From the NCBI GenBank assembly GCA_048270045.1, contig JBLWTS010000003.1, positions 10,069 to 74,068 on the forward strand: a stretch of 64,000 nt of DNA, in the 5' to 3' direction. Made by a program: the position numbers and the translations under genes. This document shows positions 2,641-28,872 of this stretch, in pieces (positions within the stretch are counted from its first letter, which is position 1; each line of letters opens with the position of its first letter). The notes below the pieces were generated by a model that saw only the letters and a list, made by a program, of their open reading frames with translations, was not told the DNA's origin and did not search any database. This stretch comes from Aequorivita sp. Its GTDB lineage: Bacteria; Bacteroidota; Bacteroidia; Flavobacteriales; Flavobacteriaceae.

Positions 2641-3060
2641 TTATTTATTTTTATCCAGAATATCTTCCAGCTCCTTTTCAGTAAGTTGAAGTTGATTAGT
2701 TAAAAGTTCAATAGCCTTTTTAATCTGGCTGCCAGATTCACTCATTATTTTATCCGCCTGCCCAAGCACCCTTAATTCATCCTCCAAATAAGCTAATTTT
2801 TTTCGTAGAATGTATGGACTTTTAGCCTCATTAACTTGAAGCTCTTTTTCCTCATCACTCATCATTGGCTCCTTTCCACACAAAAGCCAAGAAGGATTGA
2901 GTTCAGGGCATTTATTATATAGTAACTCCGCATCAAAAGAGTTCCTGCTCTTCCAGTTTGAATATACCTGTGGTGTAATTCCTAAAAACTTGGCAAAGTC
3001 TACGTCAGTTTTAAAGCTGTAGTAGTCCTTAATCTTATCTAACATTATGGCCTTATCCAT
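2641..3060 (-). CDS. HTH transcriptional regulator, phage CI-repressor/XRE-like N-terminal domain with helical C-terminus
   Basis: 139-aa ORF. The N-terminus DVDFAKFLGITPQVYSNWKSRNSFDAELLYNKCPELNPSWLLCG looks like a CI-type HTH. The gene is divergent from the sigma/Cas12f-like operon. Confidence 0.7.
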   Translation of the reverse strand: MDKAIMLDKIKDYYSFKTDVDFAKFLGITPQVYSNWKSRNSFDAELLYNKCPELNPSWLLCGKEPMMSDEEKELQVNEAKSPYILRKKLAYLEDELRVLGQADKIMSESGSQIKKAIELLTNQLQLTEKELEDILDKNK

Positions 3061-3134: not shown

Positions 3135-3155
3135 CTGTTCAATAAATGTGAACAG
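3135..3155. promoter_or_regulatory. Perfect inverted repeat CTGTTCA-N7-TGAACAG; candidate operator
   Basis: Read directly from the sequence. It sits between the candidate -7 box and the first ORF, in the divergent intergenic region shared with the CI-like repressor gene. Confidence 0.4.
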
Positions 3156-3182
3156 ATTATTTAATCTGTAAATATAGCTAAA

Positions 3183-3371
3183 ATGAAGCAAACTTATAAT
3201 GCAACCCTTGTCAAGGCGCTTGCCAAGAAGTATGAGATATCGCCGCGATATGTTAGGTACTGTCTCAAAGGAGAGCGATCCCCCTGTTTTGCAGAGAAAA
3301 TTAAAAAGGATTATACAAGATTTATAAGTAAGATAGAAAATATAATAGAAAAGGAATGTAAATCAAAATAG
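3183..3371 (+). CDS. Small (62 aa) basic protein, possible HTH
   Basis: ORF track. ALAKKYEISPRYVRYCLKG is HTH-like. The stop lies 6 nt before the sigma factor ATG, so the two are probably co-transcribed. Confidence 0.5.
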   Translation: MKQTYNATLVKALAKKYEISPRYVRYCLKGERSPCFAEKIKKDYTRFISKIENIIEKECKSK

Positions 3372-3377
3372 TGTCCC

Positions 3378-4160
3378 ATGAAACCAAGCACTTTCATACA
3401 ACTAAAAAAAGGCTGCCCAAACGCCCTTACCGCTATTTATGATGAGTACCAGAGGCGTATTTTTGGGTTGGGCAGGTACTTGCTACGCGACCACTTTGTG
3501 GTGGAATGCCTGATGCAGGACACCTTTTTAAAACTCTGGGTGCACCGCGACCGCATCGAGCGGCCTGAACACATCCTTTTCTTCCTCCTTTTCGTAATGA
3601 AAAGAGAGTGCATCTCCTATTACACCCGACCCAGAAACGACTTCAATAGAAAAATCTGCTCCCTCGATAGTTTTGATAATTATCAAAACTATATGGCGGG
3701 CTACGATCCTCTGACCGAGGCCGAAACCCTAAGGTTACAAGCCAAGGAACAACAACACTTTGAGCTCATACAAAGTGTACTGCCCCTATTAGATACCGAA
3801 GGAAAACACCTAATCGAGCTTTGCCTAAAATACGGCTTCCATTACAAGGCCATTGCTCAAGCCATGGGTAGCAGTGTTACAGACACCAGCAACAAAGTGA
3901 AAAAAGCCATTGCAGCCCTTAAGATCATTGTGGACCAAGGCGGAACGCTTAACAGCAAACAAAAGCCTGCCACCATCAAACTACAAGGTGCAATGACCCC
4001 CGAACAGGCGGAAATACTAAAACTGCGCTGTGAAAATAAATACTCCTTCGCCGACATAGCCCAAACCCTCAACCGCCCCCAAAAGGAAATCCATCGAGAA
4101 TTTATAACAGCATACAAACTCATACAACAAAAACATCACCTACAAACACAATCCGCTTAA
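3378..4160 (+). CDS. ECF-type sigma-70 family factor with an extra C-terminal sigma4-like HTH module (260 aa)
   Basis: Region-2-like DTFLKLWVHRDRIERPEHILFFLLFVMKRECISYY. Region-4-like LIELCLKYGFHYKAIAQAMGSSVTDTSNKVKKAIAALK. A second region-4-like segment follows: MTPEQAEILKLRCENKYSFADIAQTLNRPQKEIHREFITAYKLI. It is about 100 aa longer than the ordinary ECF sigma at 51876..52355. Confidence 0.85.
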   Translation: MKPSTFIQLKKGCPNALTAIYDEYQRRIFGLGRYLLRDHFVVECLMQDTFLKLWVHRDRIERPEHILFFLLFVMKRECISYYTRPRNDFNRKICSLDSFDNYQNYMAGYDPLTEAETLRLQAKEQQHFELIQSVLPLLDTEGKHLIELCLKYGFHYKAIAQAMGSSVTDTSNKVKKAIAALKIIVDQGGTLNSKQKPATIKLQGAMTPEQAEILKLRCENKYSFADIAQTLNRPQKEIHREFITAYKLIQQKHHLQTQSA

Positions 4161-4213: not shown

Positions 4214-4340
4214 TGTGGAATTTGAAAATTGAAAATTAATAATGTAAACCCGAGGGTGCTTGTAGACACTTAAGGTGAGGCCAACCGCACTCACTAAATG
4301 CCTGGGCATATACAACGCGTGAGTACTTACTTTTTTTTAA
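4214..4340 (+). ncRNA. Candidate guide RNA copy A: conserved ~105-nt scaffold (4214-4316) plus a divergent 3' tail
   Basis: Direct repeat of 5675-5781, about 80% identical by eye. It has three hairpins (4259-4274, 4275-4294, 4298-4309). Their stems are conserved between the two copies and their loops differ. It ends in ATACAAC, followed by sequence that diverges from copy B. See findings. Confidence 0.55.
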
Positions 4341-4559
4341 ACGCTCTTTAAATTGTTTTTGTAAGCCCAAACTTTTAGCCCTCCAACCAGCGAAGCAAGA
4401 GGAAGACAATGCAAAAAGGAAAGAATAATGAACAACTGAGTTGAATAGACTCATACTATTTAAATTTTTCTAACCAACACCCAACGACTGTCACACTGAG
4501 CGCAGTCAAAGTGCATAACCAACAAACAGACATCAGACAACAGAAAACACACAACTGAA

Positions 4560-5660
4560 ATGAAAACCTCCACCCTAAAACTCACCCGAAAACTCCAGCT
4601 CATCATAGACCTGCCAGAAGGGGAGGAGCGCAACGAAGCTTTTGAAAAACTCTATCGCTGGCAGAACCGTGCTTATCGTGCGGCAAACCTGATTGTCTCC
4701 CATCACTATATTCAGGAAATGATACAGGAATTTCTATACCTCTCCGATAAAGTGCAATACAAACTAACCGACGAGATAAAGGACCCTCTGGGCATACTTA
4801 ATCGCTCCCGAAATAACACAACTTATCGTTTGGTATCAGACCGTTTCAAAGGCGAAATCCCAACCAATATCCTCTCCAACCTCAACCGTGCTCTTCTCCT
4901 ATCATTCAACAAGGAGAAGCATGGATACTGGAAAGGGGAGCGGTCGGTAAAAAACTTTAAGAGGAATATGGCCTTCCCTTTTGCCCCTGATGAATGCATC
5001 CACTGCCTGCACTACAACGAGGAAAAGAAAGCCTTTTGCTTTCGATTGTTCAAAATTCCCTTTCGAATCTATCTGGGCAGGGATTCCACCGACAAGCGAA
5101 AGCTGTTGGAAAGGGCAATAGCAGGAGAGACCAGCATCCGCACCTCCCATATTAAATTAAAAGATGGAAAAATATTTTGGCTAGCAGTCTTTCAAATAGA
5201 AAAGGAAAACCACACCCTAAGGCCAGAAGTAATTGCCGAGGCCTCCCTTTCATTGGAATTTCCTATTGTGGTAAAGGCCAATAAAACGAGGCTCACCATT
5301 GGTAGCAAAGAGGAATTCCTGCACCGAAGGCTCGCAATACAGGCAGCGCGGAAAAGAGCGCAAAGCGGTGCCACCTTTTCCCGCTCCAGCAAAGGCACCA
5401 AAAGAAAGCTAAAAGCAGTGGATAGCTTCCATGAAAAAGAGCGCAATTATGTCCACACCCGCCTCCACGTGTACAGCAGAAAGCTAATCGACTTCTGCGT
5501 AAACCAACAGGCAGGAACGCTAGTCCTTTTGAACCAAGAAGACAAAATAGGCATCGCCAAAGAAGAAGAATTCGTATTGCGAAACTGGAGCTATTATGAG
5601 TTAATGGAAAAAATAAAATACAAAGCCCAAAAAGCAGGAATAGAACTTATAGTAGATTGA
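4560..5660 (+). CDS. Cas12f/TnpB-like protein, C-terminally truncated and apparently nuclease-dead (366 aa)
   Basis: The N-terminus KLTRKLQLIIDLPEGEERNEAFEKLYRWQNRAYRAANLIV has the WED/REC-like layout of TnpB/Cas12f. The central FRLFKIPFRIYLGRDSTDKRKLLERAIAGETSIRTSHIKLKDGKIFWLAVFQIEKE resembles the Cas12f WED/RuvC junction. The C-terminus YSRKLIDFCVNQQAGTLVLLNQED...LRNWSYYELMEKIKYKAQKAGIELIVD matches the RuvC-II region and the following helix. The protein stops exactly where the TSQ/CxxC zinc ribbon and RuvC-III would begin. Confidence 0.75.
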   Translation: MKTSTLKLTRKLQLIIDLPEGEERNEAFEKLYRWQNRAYRAANLIVSHHYIQEMIQEFLYLSDKVQYKLTDEIKDPLGILNRSRNNTTYRLVSDRFKGEIPTNILSNLNRALLLSFNKEKHGYWKGERSVKNFKRNMAFPFAPDECIHCLHYNEEKKAFCFRLFKIPFRIYLGRDSTDKRKLLERAIAGETSIRTSHIKLKDGKIFWLAVFQIEKENHTLRPEVIAEASLSLEFPIVVKANKTRLTIGSKEEFLHRRLAIQAARKRAQSGATFSRSSKGTKRKLKAVDSFHEKERNYVHTRLHVYSRKLIDFCVNQQAGTLVLLNQEDKIGIAKEEEFVLRNWSYYELMEKIKYKAQKAGIELIVD

Positions 5661-5674
5661 TTTTTTGGTTTAAT

Positions 5675-5805
5675 TGTGGAATTGTTTATTGCTAATTCTT
5701 TATTGAAAATTGTAAAGAGGGTTCTTGTAAACCCACAAGGTGAGGCCTAGGCACTCACTAAATGCAAAATGCATATACAACGCGTGGGCTCTCTTACCTT
5801 ATAAA
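5675..5805 (+). ncRNA. Candidate guide RNA copy B: scaffold (5675-5781) plus a divergent 3' tail
   Basis: Second copy of the 4214-4316 element, starting 15 nt after the Cas12f-like stop codon. Hairpins at 5724-5739, 5740-5758 and 5762-5774. It ends in ATACAAC, followed by GCGTGGGCTCTCTTACC... Confidence 0.55.
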
Positions 5806-5864
5806 ACATTCCGTTCGCACAGGTCGCGGCATGTCCCCAATTCCCTTGAGTCCTGCCTCCAAAA

Positions 5865-5969
5865 GTCGTGATTCCAACCGTCGTGATTCCAACCGTCGTG
5901 ATTCCAACCGTCCTGATTCAAACCGTCCTCCCTCAAACCGTCCTGATTCCAACCGTCGGGCCCCAAACC
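5865..5969. repeat. Tandem 15-mer repeat (about 7 copies, consensus CGTCGTGATTCCAAC)
   Basis: Read directly. Same family as 13400..13676 and the degenerate copies at 63840..63990. It produces the spurious ORFs 5762..6040 (+) and 5794..5982 (-). Confidence 0.9.
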
Positions 5970-5978
5970 CTTCTTTCC

Positions 5979-6761
5979 TCAAAACACTCCCACAATCCGC
6001 ATCCCGCCACTTTTGGGAATTGCTAACATCTCAGTATTGACCTCCTTATAAAAAGTTATTCCCACCGCTACTACCAATCCAGCCTCCTGTGGCAACTGAG
6101 AAATGGGTAGCGTTATCTCCATTGTCTCCATCTCGATACCAGCTACGGTAAGGGGCAGAATTTCACCCTGCATAAACCCTCCCAAACCGATGACTTCCTT
6201 GCAAAGTGGAAGATATTTTTTATGTTTGTCATTATAGGCATAATTGCTCAAGGCAGCTACATTTATTTGCAGTGCAAAATGCGTAGCTTTCTCCGGACCG
6301 GTAATTTGGGTTTGCGGTTTTATATTGCCAACTTCCCATAGCACTCCGTTTCCGTTTTTATGGAATCGCGGCATTGCCTTTAAGCCTCCTAAACTATTTA
6401 CTAGGGGTTGGAACTTTCTAAATTCAGTTTCAATCAAGTGAGATCCATTGGTGCGCAGGTCCAATTTTCGCCCTCCTTCTGTTCCTTCTCCAAAATAAGC
6501 AATACGCCTAAGTGCCCCACTAAACCTAGCCGACACGCTGCCATCTGCCAAGGAAAGGGAATGAAGTGAAAAACTTTTCCGCAAATCGCGGGCAGCCGTA
6601 CTCCCAACTCCAAATTCAATACTCGAGAGCTTGGTGCGCTCGCTTTGTTTAATGGGGCCTTCAATTTTTTTCCTGACTCTTTGCTGTCCATTTTCATCCA
6701 TATAAAATGTCAGCTCCCCAATGTTTCCGCTTATTCCCGTTAATCCATTTACTCGTGCCAT
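5979..6761 (-). CDS. Hypothetical protein (260 aa), no recognisable domain
   Basis: Long ORF convergent with the Cas12f-like gene. I see no signal peptide and no motif I recognise. Confidence 0.6.
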   Translation of the reverse strand: MARVNGLTGISGNIGELTFYMDENGQQRVRKKIEGPIKQSERTKLSSIEFGVGSTAARDLRKSFSLHSLSLADGSVSARFSGALRRIAYFGEGTEGGRKLDLRTNGSHLIETEFRKFQPLVNSLGGLKAMPRFHKNGNGVLWEVGNIKPQTQITGPEKATHFALQINVAALSNYAYNDKHKKYLPLCKEVIGLGGFMQGEILPLTVAGIEMETMEITLPISQLPQEAGLVVAVGITFYKEVNTEMLAIPKSGGMRIVGVF

Positions 6762-10825: not shown

Positions 10826-10912
10826 ACTTCGACTTCAATTTCAATTTCAACCTCAACTTCAAATTCAATTTCAACTTCAATTTCAATTTCAACTTCAATT
10901 TCAACCCCAAAT
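10826..10912. repeat. Tandem repeat tract of TTCAAT/TTCAAC units (CAATTTCAACTTCAA type)
   Basis: Read directly. Same family as 27027..27087 and 36771..36818. Confidence 0.9.
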
Positions 10913-13399: not shown

Positions 13400-13676
13400 T
13401 TCCACTCCTCGTAATTCAAAAAGTCCTGATTCAAAAAGTCCTGATTCAAAAAGTCGTGACTCCAACTGTCCTGATTCAAAAAGTCGTGACACCAACCGTC
13501 CTGATTCAAAACGTCGTAATTCAAAAAGTCCTGATTCCAACTGTCGTGATTCAAAACGTCGTGATTCCACCCGTCGTGATTCCAAATGTCGTGATTCAAA
13601 ACGTCGTGATTCAAAACGTCGTGATTCAAAAAGTCCTGATTCCAAAAGTCCTGATTCAAAACGTCCTGATTCCCCC
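13400..13676. repeat. Tandem 15-mer array (about 18 copies, GTCCTGATTCAAAAA / GTCGTGATTCAAAAC variants)
   Basis: Read directly. It produces three overlapping spurious ORFs (13325..13780 -, 13357..13716 +, 13396..13692 -). Confidence 0.95.
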
Positions 13677-26174: not shown

Positions 26175-26234
26175 AGACTTGAGATTTGAGACGTGACATC
26201 CATCTTAAATCTCTAGTCTCAAATCTCAAATCTT
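26175..26234 (+). other. Intra-operon 18-bp-stem hairpin between paaA and paaB
   Basis: AGACTTGAGATTTGAGAC (26175-26192) pairs 17/18 with GTCTCAAATCTCAAATCT (26217-26234). It is built from inverted TCTCAAA heptamer repeats. Confidence 0.7.
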
Positions 26235-26241
26235 AAATCTC

Positions 26242-26535
26242 ATGTCTGAAAACAAAAAAAACTGGCCTCTTTGGGAAGTCTTTGTCCGTAGTAAAAACGG
26301 ATTGGAACACCGACATTTTGGTAGCCTCCATGCTGCAGATGCCGATATGGCCCTTGAAAATGCCCGCGACGTTTACACCCGCCGAAACGAAGGCGTAAGC
26401 ATCTGGGTAGTTGAATCAAAAAATATAACCGCCTCAAACCCCGAGCACAACGCCGAAATGTTTGAACCCGCAAAAGATAAAATCTACCGCCATCCCACGT
26501 TTTACGACTTGCCGGATGAGGTGAAACATATGTGA
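26242..26535 (+). CDS. paaB: 1,2-phenylacetyl-CoA epoxidase subunit B
   Basis: 97 aa. WPLWEVFVRSKNGLEHRHFGSLHAADADMALENARDVYTRR is highly characteristic of PaaB. Confidence 0.92.
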   Translation: MSENKKNWPLWEVFVRSKNGLEHRHFGSLHAADADMALENARDVYTRRNEGVSIWVVESKNITASNPEHNAEMFEPAKDKIYRHPTFYDLPDEVKHM

Positions 26536-26966: not shown

Positions 26967-27026
26967 ATCCAATCACGGATTTGGTTTCGATTTCTCTCAA
27001 TTATTATTGGACAGGAATTCGATGTC

Positions 27027-27087
27027 AAGTTCAATTTCAATTTCAACTTCAATTTCAATTTCAATTTCAACTTCAACTTCAATTTCA
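27027..27087. repeat. TTCAAT/TTCAAC tandem repeat tract
   Basis: Read directly. It creates the false SSSISISTSISISIS N-terminal extension of paaC and the KLKLKL ORF on the - strand. Confidence 0.9.
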
Positions 27088-27840
27088 ATGAATTTACACT
27101 TATACAACTACATCCTAACAATCGCCGACAACTCCCTCATCCTCGGCCAACGAATGGGCGAGCTGTGCGGACATGGGCCTAGCTTGGAAACAGATATCGC
27201 TTGCACAAATATTTCCTTGGATTTATTGGGGCAAGTGCGGAGTTATTATCAGTACGCCGCAAAAATTGCCGGAGATGGCAGAACGGAAGACGATATCGCG
27301 ATGCTTCGAACAGAACGCGAATATGTGAACGTGCTATTGGTAGAACAACCAAATACGGATTTTGCATATACAATGGCGCGTCATTTTTTGTTTGACGTGT
27401 ATCATTTCTTGCTCCTAAAAGAATTGGAAAAAAGCAAGGATCTGACTTTGGACGCAATCGCAACAAAATCCTTAAAAGAAGTAAGTTATCATGAACGATT
27501 TACTTCAGATTGGATAAGGAGACTTGGCGATGGCACTGAAGAAAGTCACAAACGTATGCAAGCCGCTATTGATGAGCTATGGATGTATACGGACGAGTTA
27601 TTTAATCCAACCCCCACTGAAATAGCAATGGCAGAGGAAGGAATTGGAGTTGATATTACAAAATTGAAGCCCAAATACTACGAAACCGTAAGTGAAGTTT
27701 TAGAAGAAGCCACACTAAAAGTTCCAGATTCAAAATACTTCCACAAAGGTGGAAAACAAGGTGTTCATACAGAGCATATGGGCTTCCTTTTGGCGGAATT
27801 GCAATATATGCAGCGGACGTATCCGGGGATGGAATGGTAA
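27088..27840 (+). CDS. paaC: 1,2-phenylacetyl-CoA epoxidase subunit C
   Basis: I prefer the start at ATG 27088 (MNLHLYNYILTIADNSLILGQRMGELCGHGPSLETDIA, a typical PaaC N-terminus). Confidence 0.9.
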   Translation: MNLHLYNYILTIADNSLILGQRMGELCGHGPSLETDIACTNISLDLLGQVRSYYQYAAKIAGDGRTEDDIAMLRTEREYVNVLLVEQPNTDFAYTMARHFLFDVYHFLLLKELEKSKDLTLDAIATKSLKEVSYHERFTSDWIRRLGDGTEESHKRMQAAIDELWMYTDELFNPTPTEIAMAEEGIGVDITKLKPKYYETVSEVLEEATLKVPDSKYFHKGGKQGVHTEHMGFLLAELQYMQRTYPGMEW

Positions 27841-28261: not shown

Positions 28262-28270
28262 CTTATTTTA

Positions 28271-28386
28271 ACATTGAACATTGAACATTGAATATTGAAC
28301 ATTGAATATTGAACATTGAATATTGAACATTGAATATTGAACATTGAACATTGAAAATTGAACATTGAACATTGAAAATTGAACAT
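28271..28386. repeat. Tandem heptamer repeat (ACATTGA / ATATTGA)
   Basis: Read directly. It runs into the annotated TTG start of paaD and generates the ORF 28263..28526 on the - strand. Confidence 0.95.
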
Positions 28387-28872
28387 TTAAATATCGCCCC
28401 TTCTCTAAAGGATATCCTTTCCTCCGTGCCCGATCCCGAAATTCCCGTAATTTCTTTATTGGATCTTGGTGTCATTCGTGAGGCTTTGGAAATTGATGGA
28501 GTAGTAAAAATAAAAATGACTCCCACCTACTCAGGTTGCCCCGCAACAGATGTGATGTCCGATGATATAAAAGCTGCATTCGCCAATGAAGGTAAAACTG
28601 CTGAGGTCGAACTTATCCTTTCTCCAGCTTGGACCACCGATTGGATTTCGGAAGAAGGTTTAATAAAATTGGAGAAATATGGCATTGCCCGTCCGCTATC
28701 GGAATCCCATGACAAAGACGTTTTGCTGGGAGGTAAAAAATTAGTGAAATGCCCACAATGCGGCAGTACCCAAACTCATTTAGTAAGCCAATTCGGATCC
28801 ACCCCTTGCAAGGCGCTTTTCAAATGCGACGACTGTCACGAGCCCTTTGATTATTTTAAATGCTTGAAATAA
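28372..28872 (+). CDS. paaD: Phenylacetate-CoA oxygenase subunit PaaD (PaaJ-type, Fe-S assembly-like domain plus C-terminal Cys cluster)
   Basis: VPDPEIPVISLLDLGVIR and the C-terminal CPQCGS...CKALFKCDDCHEPFDYFKC. The start codon is uncertain: the TTG at 28372 lies inside the repeat. Confidence 0.85.
   Translation: MKIEHLNIAPSLKDILSSVPDPEIPVISLLDLGVIREALEIDGVVKIKMTPTYSGCPATDVMSDDIKAAFANEGKTAEVELILSPAWTTDWISEEGLIKLEKYGIARPLSESHDKDVLLGGKKLVKCPQCGSTQTHLVSQFGSTPCKALFKCDDCHEPFDYFKCLK

What the first reader, a model, noticed from the sequence alone, without database searches (positions are those of the whole stretch)
4214..5781. Two direct copies of a ~105-nt element with conserved stems and variable loops (structured RNA scaffold)
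Seen in sequence: 4214-4316 and 5675-5781 align at about 80% by eye. Both begin TGTGGAATT and end GCATATACAAC. Almost all differences fall in the loops of three hairpins. H1: CTTGT-AGACAC-TTAAG (4259-4274) versus CTTGT-AAACCC-ACAAG (5724-5739). H2: GTGAGGC-CAACC-GC(A)CTCAC (4275-4294) versus GTGAGGC-CTAG-GC(A)CTCAC (5740-5758). H3: ATGC-CTGG-GCAT (4298-4309) versus ATGCA-AAA-TGCAT (5762-5774). In H1 a G-C pair in copy B is a G-T pair in copy A. That is tolerated as G-U only if the + strand is transcribed, which matches the gene orientation. Each copy follows a protein gene, one after the sigma factor and one after the Cas12f-like gene. The terminal ...ATACAAC is reminiscent, from memory, of the ...GCAAC 3' end of Cas12f crRNA repeats. 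Inference: these are natural single-guide-RNA scaffolds, possibly processed out of the operon transcript.
Basis: partly seen in the sequence, partly recalled or inferred. Interest (0 to 1): 0.85.

Follow-up and report, generated by a model that had tools for sequence, protein, structure and literature searches.

The report
Guide RNA genes of dCas12f–sigma system
The two repeated elements are guide-RNA genes of a nuclease-dead Cas12f and sigma-factor system that switches genes on by RNA-guided transcription; that system was published in 2025-2026, so this is a new example of a known kind, unusual only in carrying a second, divergent guide RNA between the two protein genes.

Summary
The repeat is real. 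Its conserved unit is a ~71-nt scaffold plus a 14-16-nt 3' guide (A about 4246-4330, B about 5711-5797), not the ~105 nt claimed. The shared 5' part (TGTGGAATT...) is AT-rich, short-repeat-like intergenic sequence.

The flanking genes are close homologues of the Flagellimonas taeanensis proteins solved as "nuclease-deactivated Cas12f" (E=2e-167) and its RpoE partner (E=1e-85). That system is RNA-guided transcription (Hoffmann et al., Nature 2026).

A covariance model built from 72 relatives finds the element only next to dcas12f and always on its strand. It gives 2 hits in the 64-kb window and 106 hits in 88 related loci.

Hairpins H2 and H3 show compensatory changes. H1 competes with a mutually exclusive GGGUG/CACCC helix.

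Copy B carries the guide conserved across genera, GCGTGGGCTCTCTT. In relatives this guide matches a site with a 5'-G upstream of rpoE. Copy A lies between rpoE and dcas12f, an arrangement seen in only 5 of 89 loci. It has a divergent guide and a weakened first helix, so it may be a second functional guide or a decaying duplicate.

No target site lies in the window.

The system is known, so interest is modest.

The parts
2641..3060 (-). hth: CI-repressor-like helix-turn-helix gene (139 aa), divergent from the operon
   Evidence: Pfam PF07022, E=1.4e-5. It occupies the same divergent position as hth in F. taeanensis locus L056. It is conserved in L001, L004 and L205.
3135..3170 (.). Two overlapping inverted repeats (CTGTTCA-n7-TGAACAG and ACAGATTA-ttt-TAATCTGT) just upstream of the small HTH ORF; candidate HTH operators
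   Evidence: Read from the sequence, and the first repeat was also reported by the scan. [quoted passage not shown] Operator function is inferred.
3183..3371 (+). Small 62-aa HTH-like ORF, sitting where relatives carry the hth-associated ncRNA/target element
   Evidence: The ORF is intact and similar at protein level in L004, L205 and L210-L212. No Pfam hit.
3378..4160 (+). rpoE: ECF-type sigma factor with C-terminal extension (dCas12f-associated sigma-E)
   Evidence: Pfam Sigma70_r2 and r4. End-to-end match to PDB 9n9q_C RpoE, E=1.4e-85, residues 4-260 of 260. The next-best hit, an ECF sigma, aligns only to residues 16-186.
4214..4245 (+).
   Evidence: 60% identity to the equivalent stretch before copy B. 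It resembles the tandem repeats at 28270-28387. Not conserved in relatives.
4246..4316 (+). gRNA A scaffold (copy A), in the rpoE-dcas12f spacer
   Evidence: Covariance model R1 scores the scaffold plus guide at 73.7 bits, E=2.7e-18, full length. The 5' end is set by homology to the 75-nt F. taeanensis scaffold, which starts 6 nt before GAGGG. Two non-canonical pairs in GGGUG/GACAC, involving 4265 and 4268. Orthologues in L207 and L208 have C at the position of 4268 and score 81.4 bits.
4317..4330 (+). Guide A (GCGTGAGTACTTAC), followed by T8 at 4331-4338
   Evidence: These are the 14 nt abutting ...ACAAC, as in the published gRNA. The GCGTG seed is shared with most relatives. It matches only 6-9 of 14 positions of the canonical target sites of relatives.
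4560..5660 (+). dcas12f: nuclease-dead, C-terminally truncated Cas12f homologue (366 aa)
   Evidence: E=2.1e-167 to PDB 9n9c, residues 3-365. Nuclease-active Cas12f chains extend roughly 65-90 residues beyond the end of the match. 1052 homologues at E<=1e-10.
5675..5710 (+). AT-rich sequence 5' of copy B; not part of the conserved scaffold
   Evidence: In most relatives the scaffold begins about 12-14 nt after the dcas12f stop codon.
5711..5781 (+). gRNA B scaffold (copy B), the canonical gRNA just downstream of dcas12f
   Evidence: Model R1 scores the scaffold plus guide at 95.1 bits, E=2.9e-24. It is 95% identical to the L002 gRNA. It carries a compensatory U:A at the loop-closing pair of GGGUU/AACCC.
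5782..5797 (+). Guide B (GCGTGGGCTCTCTT, possibly +AC)
   Evidence: Identical to the guide conserved across many Flavobacteriaceae genera. It matches the 5'-G-flanked sites upstream of rpoE in relatives at 11-14 of 14 positions.

Best explanation
The locus hth / small HTH ORF / rpoE / gRNA A / dcas12f / gRNA B is a dCas12f-sigma-E RNA-guided transcription system. Each repeat copy is a gene for a single guide RNA of about 85 nt. The RNA consists of a ~71-nt scaffold (a 5' hairpin module, the GGUGAGG..CUCACU hairpin, the AUGC..GCAU hairpin and the invariant AUACAAC tail) followed by a 14-16-nt guide.

By homology to the characterised F. taeanensis system, a dCas12f dimer binds the scaffold. The guide forms an R-loop at a DNA site flanked by a 5'-G. 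The sigma factor's C-terminal domain docks on dCas12f, and RNA polymerase starts transcription about 46 bp downstream without promoter motifs.

Copy B is the canonical gRNA, with the guide conserved across genera. Copy A is a lineage-restricted paralogue inside the operon with a different guide. It most likely adds a second target specificity, but it may be losing function.

Shown here: homology of both proteins; family membership, strand and context specificity of both RNAs; covariation in two hairpins. Inferred: expression, processing, binding, and target identity.
For: Proteins. dCas12f matches PDB 9n9c at E=2e-167. RpoE matches 9n9q_C at E=1e-85 over its full length.

RNA family. 72 distinct relatives align without ambiguity, including the F. 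taeanensis locus L056, where the gRNA was defined by RIP-seq and cryo-EM.

Specificity. Model R1 gives only 2 significant hits in the 64-kb window. It gives 95 hits in 80 related loci, all on the dcas12f strand and almost all starting just after its stop codon, plus 11 more in L201-L208. It gives none in hth-susCD loci or unrelated contigs.

Covariation.
- Pair 38:48 is UA 48, UG 14, CG 9.
- Pair 59:73 is AU 64, GC 6.
- Pair 61:71 is GC 68, AU 3.
- Pair 62:70 is CG 46, UG 16, UA 8.
- 30 cells changed on both sides, against 7.2 +/- 2.2 in shuffles.

Guide B. It equals the conserved guide. In relatives that guide matches a site upstream of rpoE with a 5'-G in 34/34 cases and 12-14/14 complementarity in 15 of 28 loci. 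This is the published 'category III' auto-regulation.

Copy A is not an assembly artefact. L207 and L208, from separate samples, carry it at 99% identity. L004 has two gRNAs in the same rpoE-dcas12f spacer. They share with copy A a G at column 22, a shortened third-hairpin loop ending GGCAU, and a GUACU guide core.
Against: No target site for either guide lies in the 64-kb window. The ncRNA/target element that about half the relatives carry upstream of rpoE is absent here. What the guides act on is therefore unknown.

There are no expression or binding data for this organism.

Copy A is among the lowest-scoring of all family members. It breaks two of five pairs of the GGUG/CACCC-type helix at otherwise 89-99% conserved positions. 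Its guide looks like a canonical guide with 2 nt deleted. It is missing from the closest named relative, A. viscosa L001, and from L002, L205 and L206.

Two dCas12f residues that stack on the G-C pair next to the TAM to help strand separation in F. taeanensis (M85, H110) are N and R here. The 5'-G requirement is therefore assumed, not shown.
Confidence: 0.88

Rival explanations
1. Copy B is the only working guide RNA. Copy A is a duplicated gRNA that landed in the rpoE-dcas12f spacer and is decaying. It is either no longer bound productively or has a guide with no target.
For: Copy A scores 73.7 bits, against 95.1 for copy B and 85-105 for most relatives. It has G:A and G:G mismatches in the first helix. 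It is the only one of 72 sequences with A at column 25 and with U at column 27. The C-to-A change at 4268 is specific to this strain, since L207 and L208 keep C. Its guide matches the canonical sites of relatives at only 6-9 of 14 positions, and the paper reports that more than 10 nt of complementarity is needed for activity. The copy is absent from L001, L002, L205 and L206.
Against: Copy A keeps the other two hairpins, the AUACAAC tail and the GCGTG seed. It is retained in three assemblies. A related arrangement with similar guide cores exists in L004, whose dCas12f is 85% identical. A guide of exactly 14 nt followed by T8 looks like a maintained 3' end.
Confidence: 0.35
2. The two copies are the omega-RNA or transposon-end sequences of an IS200/IS605-type TnpB element. 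They would be direct repeats marking a mobile unit that carries the Cas12f-like gene.
For: TnpB-family chains appear among weaker PDB hits (9nzp_A at E=5e-16, 8j3r_A at 6e-14). Some database records name homologues 'transposase'. The published gRNA architecture is described as reminiscent of omega-RNA.
Against: No tnpA gene is present. In 84 of 89 loci only the downstream copies exist. The rpoE-dcas12f pair is syntenic across dozens of genera. The protein is truncated like the nuclease-dead F. taeanensis protein. The guide is conserved across genera, which is not expected of a transposon-flank-derived guide.
Confidence: 0.02
3. The copies are remnants of a type V-F CRISPR array, that is, two repeats or a repeat plus a tracrRNA.
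For: The AUACAAC tail resembles the ...AUGCAAC end of Cas12f/Cas14 repeats (from my own knowledge, not tested). The paper proposes that these gRNAs evolved from repeat-spacer units.
Against: The copies are 1465 nt apart with a gene between them. The window contains no repeat-spacer array. The published system has no tracrRNA. The unit is a full ~71-nt structured scaffold rather than a 36-nt repeat.
Confidence: 0.03
4. The element is a generic dispersed intergenic repeat or terminator-like hairpin cluster, unrelated to the Cas12f-like gene.
For: The window is rich in short intergenic tandem repeats, and the 5' parts of both copies resemble them.
Against: Only two model hits occur in 64 kb. Every one of the 106 hits in related loci is adjacent to dcas12f and on its strand.
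Confidence: 0.01

Closest known systems
dCas12f-sigma-E RNA-guided transcription system and its single guide RNA, characterised in Flagellimonas taeanensis (Hoffmann et al., Nature 2026, PMC13472631; structures in PMC12259091, PDB 9n9c/9n9q)
   Same: Same gene set and order: divergent hth, rpoE with C-terminal domain, truncated dcas12f, and a gRNA on the same strand just downstream. The scaffold is alignable column by column with the F. taeanensis gRNA locus. The guide is 14-16 nt at the 3' end after ...ACAAC. Guide B belongs to the conserved guide class whose seed equals the 5' edge of the hth-associated ncRNA.
   Different: An additional gRNA sits between rpoE and dcas12f. I saw this in only 5 of 89 loci (window, L004, L051, L207, L208), and it is not mentioned in the sections of the paper I read. 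No hth-associated ncRNA/target element lies upstream of rpoE; a 62-aa HTH ORF sits there instead. About 45 nt of repeat-like sequence separates the dcas12f stop codon from the scaffold. The guides differ from the F. taeanensis guide UUGUGGGAUAUACG.
Tandem multi-gRNA dcas12f loci (Leeuwenhoekiella palythoae and Paenimyroides ummariense in the same paper; L002, L043, L065, L069, L073-L078 here)
   Same: More than one gRNA with similar scaffolds and related guides serves one dCas12f.
   Different: In those loci the gRNAs are arranged in tandem downstream of dcas12f. Here one copy lies upstream, inside the operon.
Type V-F CRISPR-Cas12f crRNA:tracrRNA and engineered Cas12f sgRNAs
   Same: Homologous effector fold (PDB hits 9nzo_B at 5e-43, 7l48_A at 9e-7). 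The guide is at the 3' end, next to a ...CAAC repeat-like tail.
   Different: No CRISPR array, no tracrRNA and no adaptation genes. The effector lacks the C-terminal part of RuvC. The output is transcription activation, not cleavage.
TnpB omega-RNA and TldR guide RNAs (nuclease-dead TnpB-like repressors)
   Same: A compact single guide RNA with a structured scaffold and 3' guide, encoded at the 3' end of the effector gene. TldR is likewise a nuclease-dead domesticated regulator.
   Different: No transposon ends. The system is coupled to a dedicated sigma factor and activates rather than represses.

Membership tests
dCas12f-sigma-E guide RNA (Hoffmann et al. 2026) | The scaffold is homologous to experimentally defined gRNAs in both sequence and structure | tested here: met
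   Both copies align full-length with 70 relatives, including F. taeanensis L056. Model R1 scores are 95.1 bits (B) and 73.7 bits (A). These two sequences were in the training set. However, blastn of copy A against the gRNAs of L001 and L002 alone gives E=8e-16 and 3e-22.
dCas12f-sigma-E guide RNA (Hoffmann et al. 2026) | Encoded immediately downstream of dcas12f on the same strand | tested here: met
   Met for copy B: the scaffold starts about 51 nt after the stop codon at 5660, on the + strand. Not met for copy A, which lies upstream of dcas12f but on the same strand and within the operon.
dCas12f-sigma-E guide RNA (Hoffmann et al. 2026) | [quoted passage not shown] | tested here: met
   Both guides start with GCGTG, as do most relatives. 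ncRNA/target sites in relatives start with G|GCGTG(G/A). Guide B matches them at 11-14 of 14 positions and guide A at 6-9 of 14.
dCas12f-sigma-E guide RNA (Hoffmann et al. 2026) | Partner effector is a Cas12f homologue with a truncated or inactivated RuvC domain | tested here: met
   E=2e-167 to PDB 9n9c 'Nuclease-deactivated Cas12f', with the same length. Active Cas12f chains continue roughly 65-90 residues past the end of the match. Catalytic residues were not checked individually.
dCas12f-sigma-E guide RNA (Hoffmann et al. 2026) | Adjacent sigma-E carrying the extra C-terminal domain | tested here: met
   The match to 9n9q_C RpoE covers residues 4-260 of 260. An ordinary ECF sigma (4nqw_A) aligns only to residues 16-186.
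dCas12f-sigma-E guide RNA (Hoffmann et al. 2026) | A genomic target with 5'-G TAM, perfect 6-nt seed, intergenic, upstream of a correctly oriented gene (susCD, two-component system, or rpoE-dcas12f) | tested here: inconclusive
   None was found in the 64-kb window. All seed matches lie inside coding regions. The ncRNA model R2 gives 0 hits. The rest of the genome was not available.
dCas12f-sigma-E guide RNA (Hoffmann et al. 2026) | The RNA is expressed, has defined ends and is bound by dCas12f | not testable with these tools
   This needs RNA-seq or RIP-seq.
Type V-F CRISPR-Cas12f crRNA/tracrRNA | A repeat-spacer array with a separate tracrRNA | tested here: not met
   No array was found in the window. 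There are two copies 1465 nt apart, each a complete scaffold plus guide.
IS200/IS605 TnpB omega-RNA | Lies at a transposon right end with tnpA and/or conserved LE/RE, in multiple mobile copies | tested here: not met
   No tnpA or transposon ends are present. The locus is syntenic across genera.
Any Rfam 15 family | Reaches the gathering score of a curated covariance model | tested here: not met
   0 matches in the whole window. The gRNA family is described in the literature but does not appear to be in Rfam 15.

The most novel reading that the evidence does not exclude
Copy A is a functional second guide RNA inside the operon. It would direct dCas12f-sigma-E to a target class different from the conserved GCGTGGGCUCUCUU sites. 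One candidate is the opposite strand of hairpin-type target loci, whose bottom strand reads GCGTG(G/A)ATACTY in relatives. In addition, its small 3' hairpin plus U8 tract between rpoE and dcas12f could act as an attenuator that uncouples sigma-factor and effector expression. The locus would then be a two-guide regulatory node with a built-in control point.
Probability: 0.2. Interest if true: 0.45.

Novelty: new member of a known kind. Interest (0 to 1): 0.3.

Why it matters
The locus adds a natural variant to a recently discovered mode of gene activation, in which a guide RNA replaces promoter recognition. Three features could help define what is dispensable in these systems and how a regulon grows by guide duplication. 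First, a second divergent gRNA sits between rpoE and dcas12f. Second, the auto-regulatory ncRNA/target element is absent. Third, a natural mutation lies in the first scaffold helix. The work also yields two reusable covariance models, one for the gRNA and one for the hth-associated ncRNA/target, and shows that neither family is in Rfam 15. It does not open a new question, because the mechanism and the RNA class are already established experimentally.

Tried and rejected
- Target search in the window. I searched for both guides with up to 3 mismatches and with a perfect 6-nt seed. The best hits lie inside coding regions and were treated as chance: 50587 (11/14), 35516 (inside an Na+/H+ antiporter-like ORF), 51940 and 14164.
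- Metagenome scan. An exact scan with the 14-mer guide A returned only chance hits. L186 looked interesting because it has a GGTATACCAGTGC motif nearby. It has very low ORF density and no model hit, so I dropped it.
- Retrieving more of the source contig. The exact-protein look-up failed, so the rest of the genome could not be searched.
- Promoters and terminators. The sigma-70-type scan is uninformative for Bacteroidetes, and the counts are close to the shuffle expectation. By eye I found no consistent Bacteroidetes -33/-7 motif upstream of the scaffolds.
- Pseudoknot. A possible pairing between loop UUGUA and tail UACAA is 99% complementary but invariant, so it can be neither supported nor refuted.
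- susC leader similarity. An apparent resemblance between the region upstream of dcas12f and the susC leaders of L210/L212 did not survive alignment.
- Single-sequence folding. Folds of copy A are no better than shuffles (z = +0.6), and copy B is only modestly better (z = -2.7). The structural evidence comes from comparison with relatives, not from energy.
- H1 versus GGGUG/CACCC. I could not settle this. The figures of the cryo-EM paper are not held, and its text gives no residue numbers for P1-P4.
Full report
**Observation.** TGTGGAATT starts at 4214 and 5675, and GCATATACAAC ends at 4316 and 5781. Over the claimed spans a global alignment gives 80 identical positions in 111 columns (72%). 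The identity is uneven. The core from GAGGG to ACAAC (4252-4316 vs 5717-5781) is 53/66 identical, with a score of 38 against -10.5 +/- 4.5 for shuffles. The 5' AT-rich part is only 27/45 identical and barely above shuffles. That 5' part resembles the 6-, 7-, 14- and 15-nt tandem repeats that fill intergenic DNA in this window and in Aequorivita relatives. It is not conserved in other genera, where the element mostly starts about 12-14 nt after the dcas12f stop codon. The similarity also runs on 3' of ACAAC: GCGTGAGTA--CTTAC in A against GCGTGGGCTCTCTTAC in B.

**The neighbouring genes.** The 366-aa ORF at 4560-5660 has no Pfam hit. It matches PDB 9n9c, 'Nuclease-deactivated Cas12f', at E=2e-167 over residues 3-365. 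Active Cas12f and TnpB chains follow at 5e-43 and weaker, and they continue roughly 65-90 residues beyond where this protein ends. The sigma factor at 3378-4160 matches chain C of 9n9q (RpoE) end to end at E=1e-85. An ordinary ECF sigma aligns only to residues 16-186, so the C-terminal extension is present. A CI-like HTH gene lies divergently at 2641-3060, as in the F. taeanensis locus.

**The published system.** This gene set is the one described by Hoffmann et al. (Nature 2026, PMC13472631) and in a companion structural preprint (PMC12259091). dCas12f binds an 85-105-nt single guide RNA encoded just downstream of its gene, recognises DNA with a 5'-G TAM, recruits sigma-E and RNA polymerase, and starts transcription about 46 bp downstream without promoter motifs.

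**Family membership of the RNAs.** I fetched 80 loci encoding dCas12f relatives (67-94% amino-acid identity), mostly from Flavobacteriaceae. A motif search and then a MAFFT alignment of 72 distinct sequences show that both window copies align column by column with the sequence after dcas12f in those loci. This includes F. taeanensis L056.

The cryo-EM paper states that guide residues 77-79 pair with 87-89. Applied to L056, this fits a 75-nt scaffold that starts 6 nt before GAGGG, followed by a 14-nt guide. Transferred to the window, gRNA A is about 4246-4330 and gRNA B about 5711-5795/5797.

A covariance model built from the alignment finds only these two elements in the 64-kb window. The scores are 95.1 and 73.7 bits, and the next hit is 8.7 bits at E=3.3. 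The model finds 95 hits in the 80 loci, all on the dcas12f strand and nearly all starting just after its stop codon. It finds 11 more in eight further loci. It finds none in hth-susCD loci or unrelated metagenome contigs. Rfam 15 has no matching family.

**Structure.** RNAalifold predicts three hairpins:
- GGGUG/CACCC with loop CUUGUA.
- GGUGAGGn/nC-CUCACU with a bulged A.
- AUGC/GCAU.

Pair 38:48 is UA 48, UG 14, CG 9. Pair 59:73 is AU 64, GC 6. Pair 61:71 is GC 68, AU 3. Pair 62:70 is CG 46, UG 16, UA 8. In all, 30 cells changed on both sides against 7.2 in shuffles, and far fewer when partners are slid by 1-3 columns. The invariant G31:U56 pair and the U:G variants would be C:A on the other strand, which supports + strand transcription.

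I could not decide between the two. The loop UUGUA could also pair with the tail UACAA, but both are invariant.

**The two guides.** Guide B is the sequence found after the scaffold in most of the relatives, GCGTGGGCTCTCTTAT. About half of the relatives carry a conserved element between hth and rpoE: GGCGTGGGCTCTCTTAT...GGTATACCAGTACC...ATAAGTTGAGTATCCACGCC followed by a T run. This corresponds to the published hth-associated ncRNA, whose 5' edge is the gRNA target. All 34 such sites are preceded by G, and the local guide matches 12-14 of 14 positions in 15 of 28 loci. Guide B matches these sites at 11-14 of 14 positions. Guide A matches at 6-9 of 14 and looks like a canonical guide with two bases missing.

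The window has no such element (0 hits at E<=10). Its closest relatives L001-L004 and L201-L208 lack it too. A conserved 62-aa HTH-like ORF occupies the position instead. Neither guide has a credible target in the window, and no susCD operon lies nearby. The targets must lie elsewhere in the genome, which I could not retrieve.

**Copy A.** A gRNA between rpoE and dcas12f is rare. It occurs in the window, in L207 and L208 (two near-identical assemblies from separate samples), in L004 (two copies) and in L051. A. viscosa L001 (94% protein identity) has only about 100 nt between the genes. L002, L205 and L206 have the genes abutting. L003 has a 430-nt repeat-filled spacer without a gRNA.

Copy A shares three features with the two L004 upstream gRNAs: a G at alignment column 22, a shortened third-hairpin loop ending GGCAU, and a GUACU guide core. 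This suggests common descent.

Copy A is one of the weakest family members. It has G:G and G:A mismatches in GGGUG/GACAC. The A at 4268 is strain-specific, because L207 and L208 have C there and score 81.4 bits. It keeps every other conserved feature, and its guide is exactly 14 nt followed by T8. I put roughly 55% on a functional second guide and 35% on a decaying duplicate.

**Verdict.** The element is a member of a family that was characterised experimentally in 2025-2026. The new points are local: an operon-internal second gRNA with a divergent guide, the missing cis target, and a natural scaffold mutation. These are of modest interest to specialists.

Noticed in passing
window 5850-5958, 13409-13672, 10826-10905, 27025-27089, 28270-28387, 26202-26242; also L003 720-1040 and 2300-2410: Intergenic regions here and in Aequorivita relatives are packed with short tandem repeats of 6-, 7-, 14- and 15-nt units. 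One example is GTCGTGATTCCAACC x6 directly after gRNA B, with a related 15-mer x18 at 13.4 kb. Their role is unknown. They explain the spurious 5' similarity of the two copies.
   Followed up: partly
L005-L077 at about locus position 3000 (e.g. L057 3006-3095); absent from the window: The hth-associated ncRNA/target element is a ~70-nt imperfect hairpin followed by a T run. Its 5' arm equals the conserved guide and is always preceded by G (34/34). Its bottom strand also reads as a guide-like site, G|GCGTGGATACTCAAC, so both strands offer potential dCas12f sites.
   Followed up: partly
window 3183-3371; L210 4690-4878, L211 4666-4863, L212 4690-4863: The divergent pair of CI-like hth and the 62-aa HTH-like ORF also occurs without rpoE-dcas12f, directly upstream of susC-susD operons in other metagenomic genomes. 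This matches the published link between hth-marked loci and susCD targets. I found no guide-like site or ncRNA there.
   Followed up: partly
window 3135-3170: Two overlapping perfect inverted repeats (CTGTTCA n7 TGAACAG and ACAGATTA ttt TAATCTGT) lie 13-48 nt upstream of the small HTH ORF. A similar sequence stands at the same place in L210-L212. They are likely operators.
   Followed up: no
window 4268 (compare L207 position 941 and L208 position 401): A strain-specific C-to-A change in copy A breaks a G:C pair that is intact in 71 of 72 family members. The near-identical assemblies L207 and L208 keep C.
   Followed up: yes
L201 1-42, L202 1-20: Two short-read contigs encoding the 93%-identical dCas12f break 20-40 nt upstream of the gene. 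This may be an assembly break caused by a duplicated gRNA scaffold upstream, so they may be further carriers of a copy-A-like element.
   Followed up: no
L004 5192-5283; L051, L059, L073, L075, L077, L080 downstream gRNAs: Some relatives carry gRNAs with entirely different guides, for example ATGCGAAAAACATC and CCCTCCAATCTTTA. The family is therefore not restricted to the conserved GCGTGGG guide class.
   Followed up: no
window 5979-6761 (-): A 260-aa ORF with no Pfam hit is convergent with the operon. A minus-strand ORF of similar size (247-252 aa) sits at the same position in L201, L203/L204 and L206; its sequence similarity to the window ORF was not checked.
   Followed up: no
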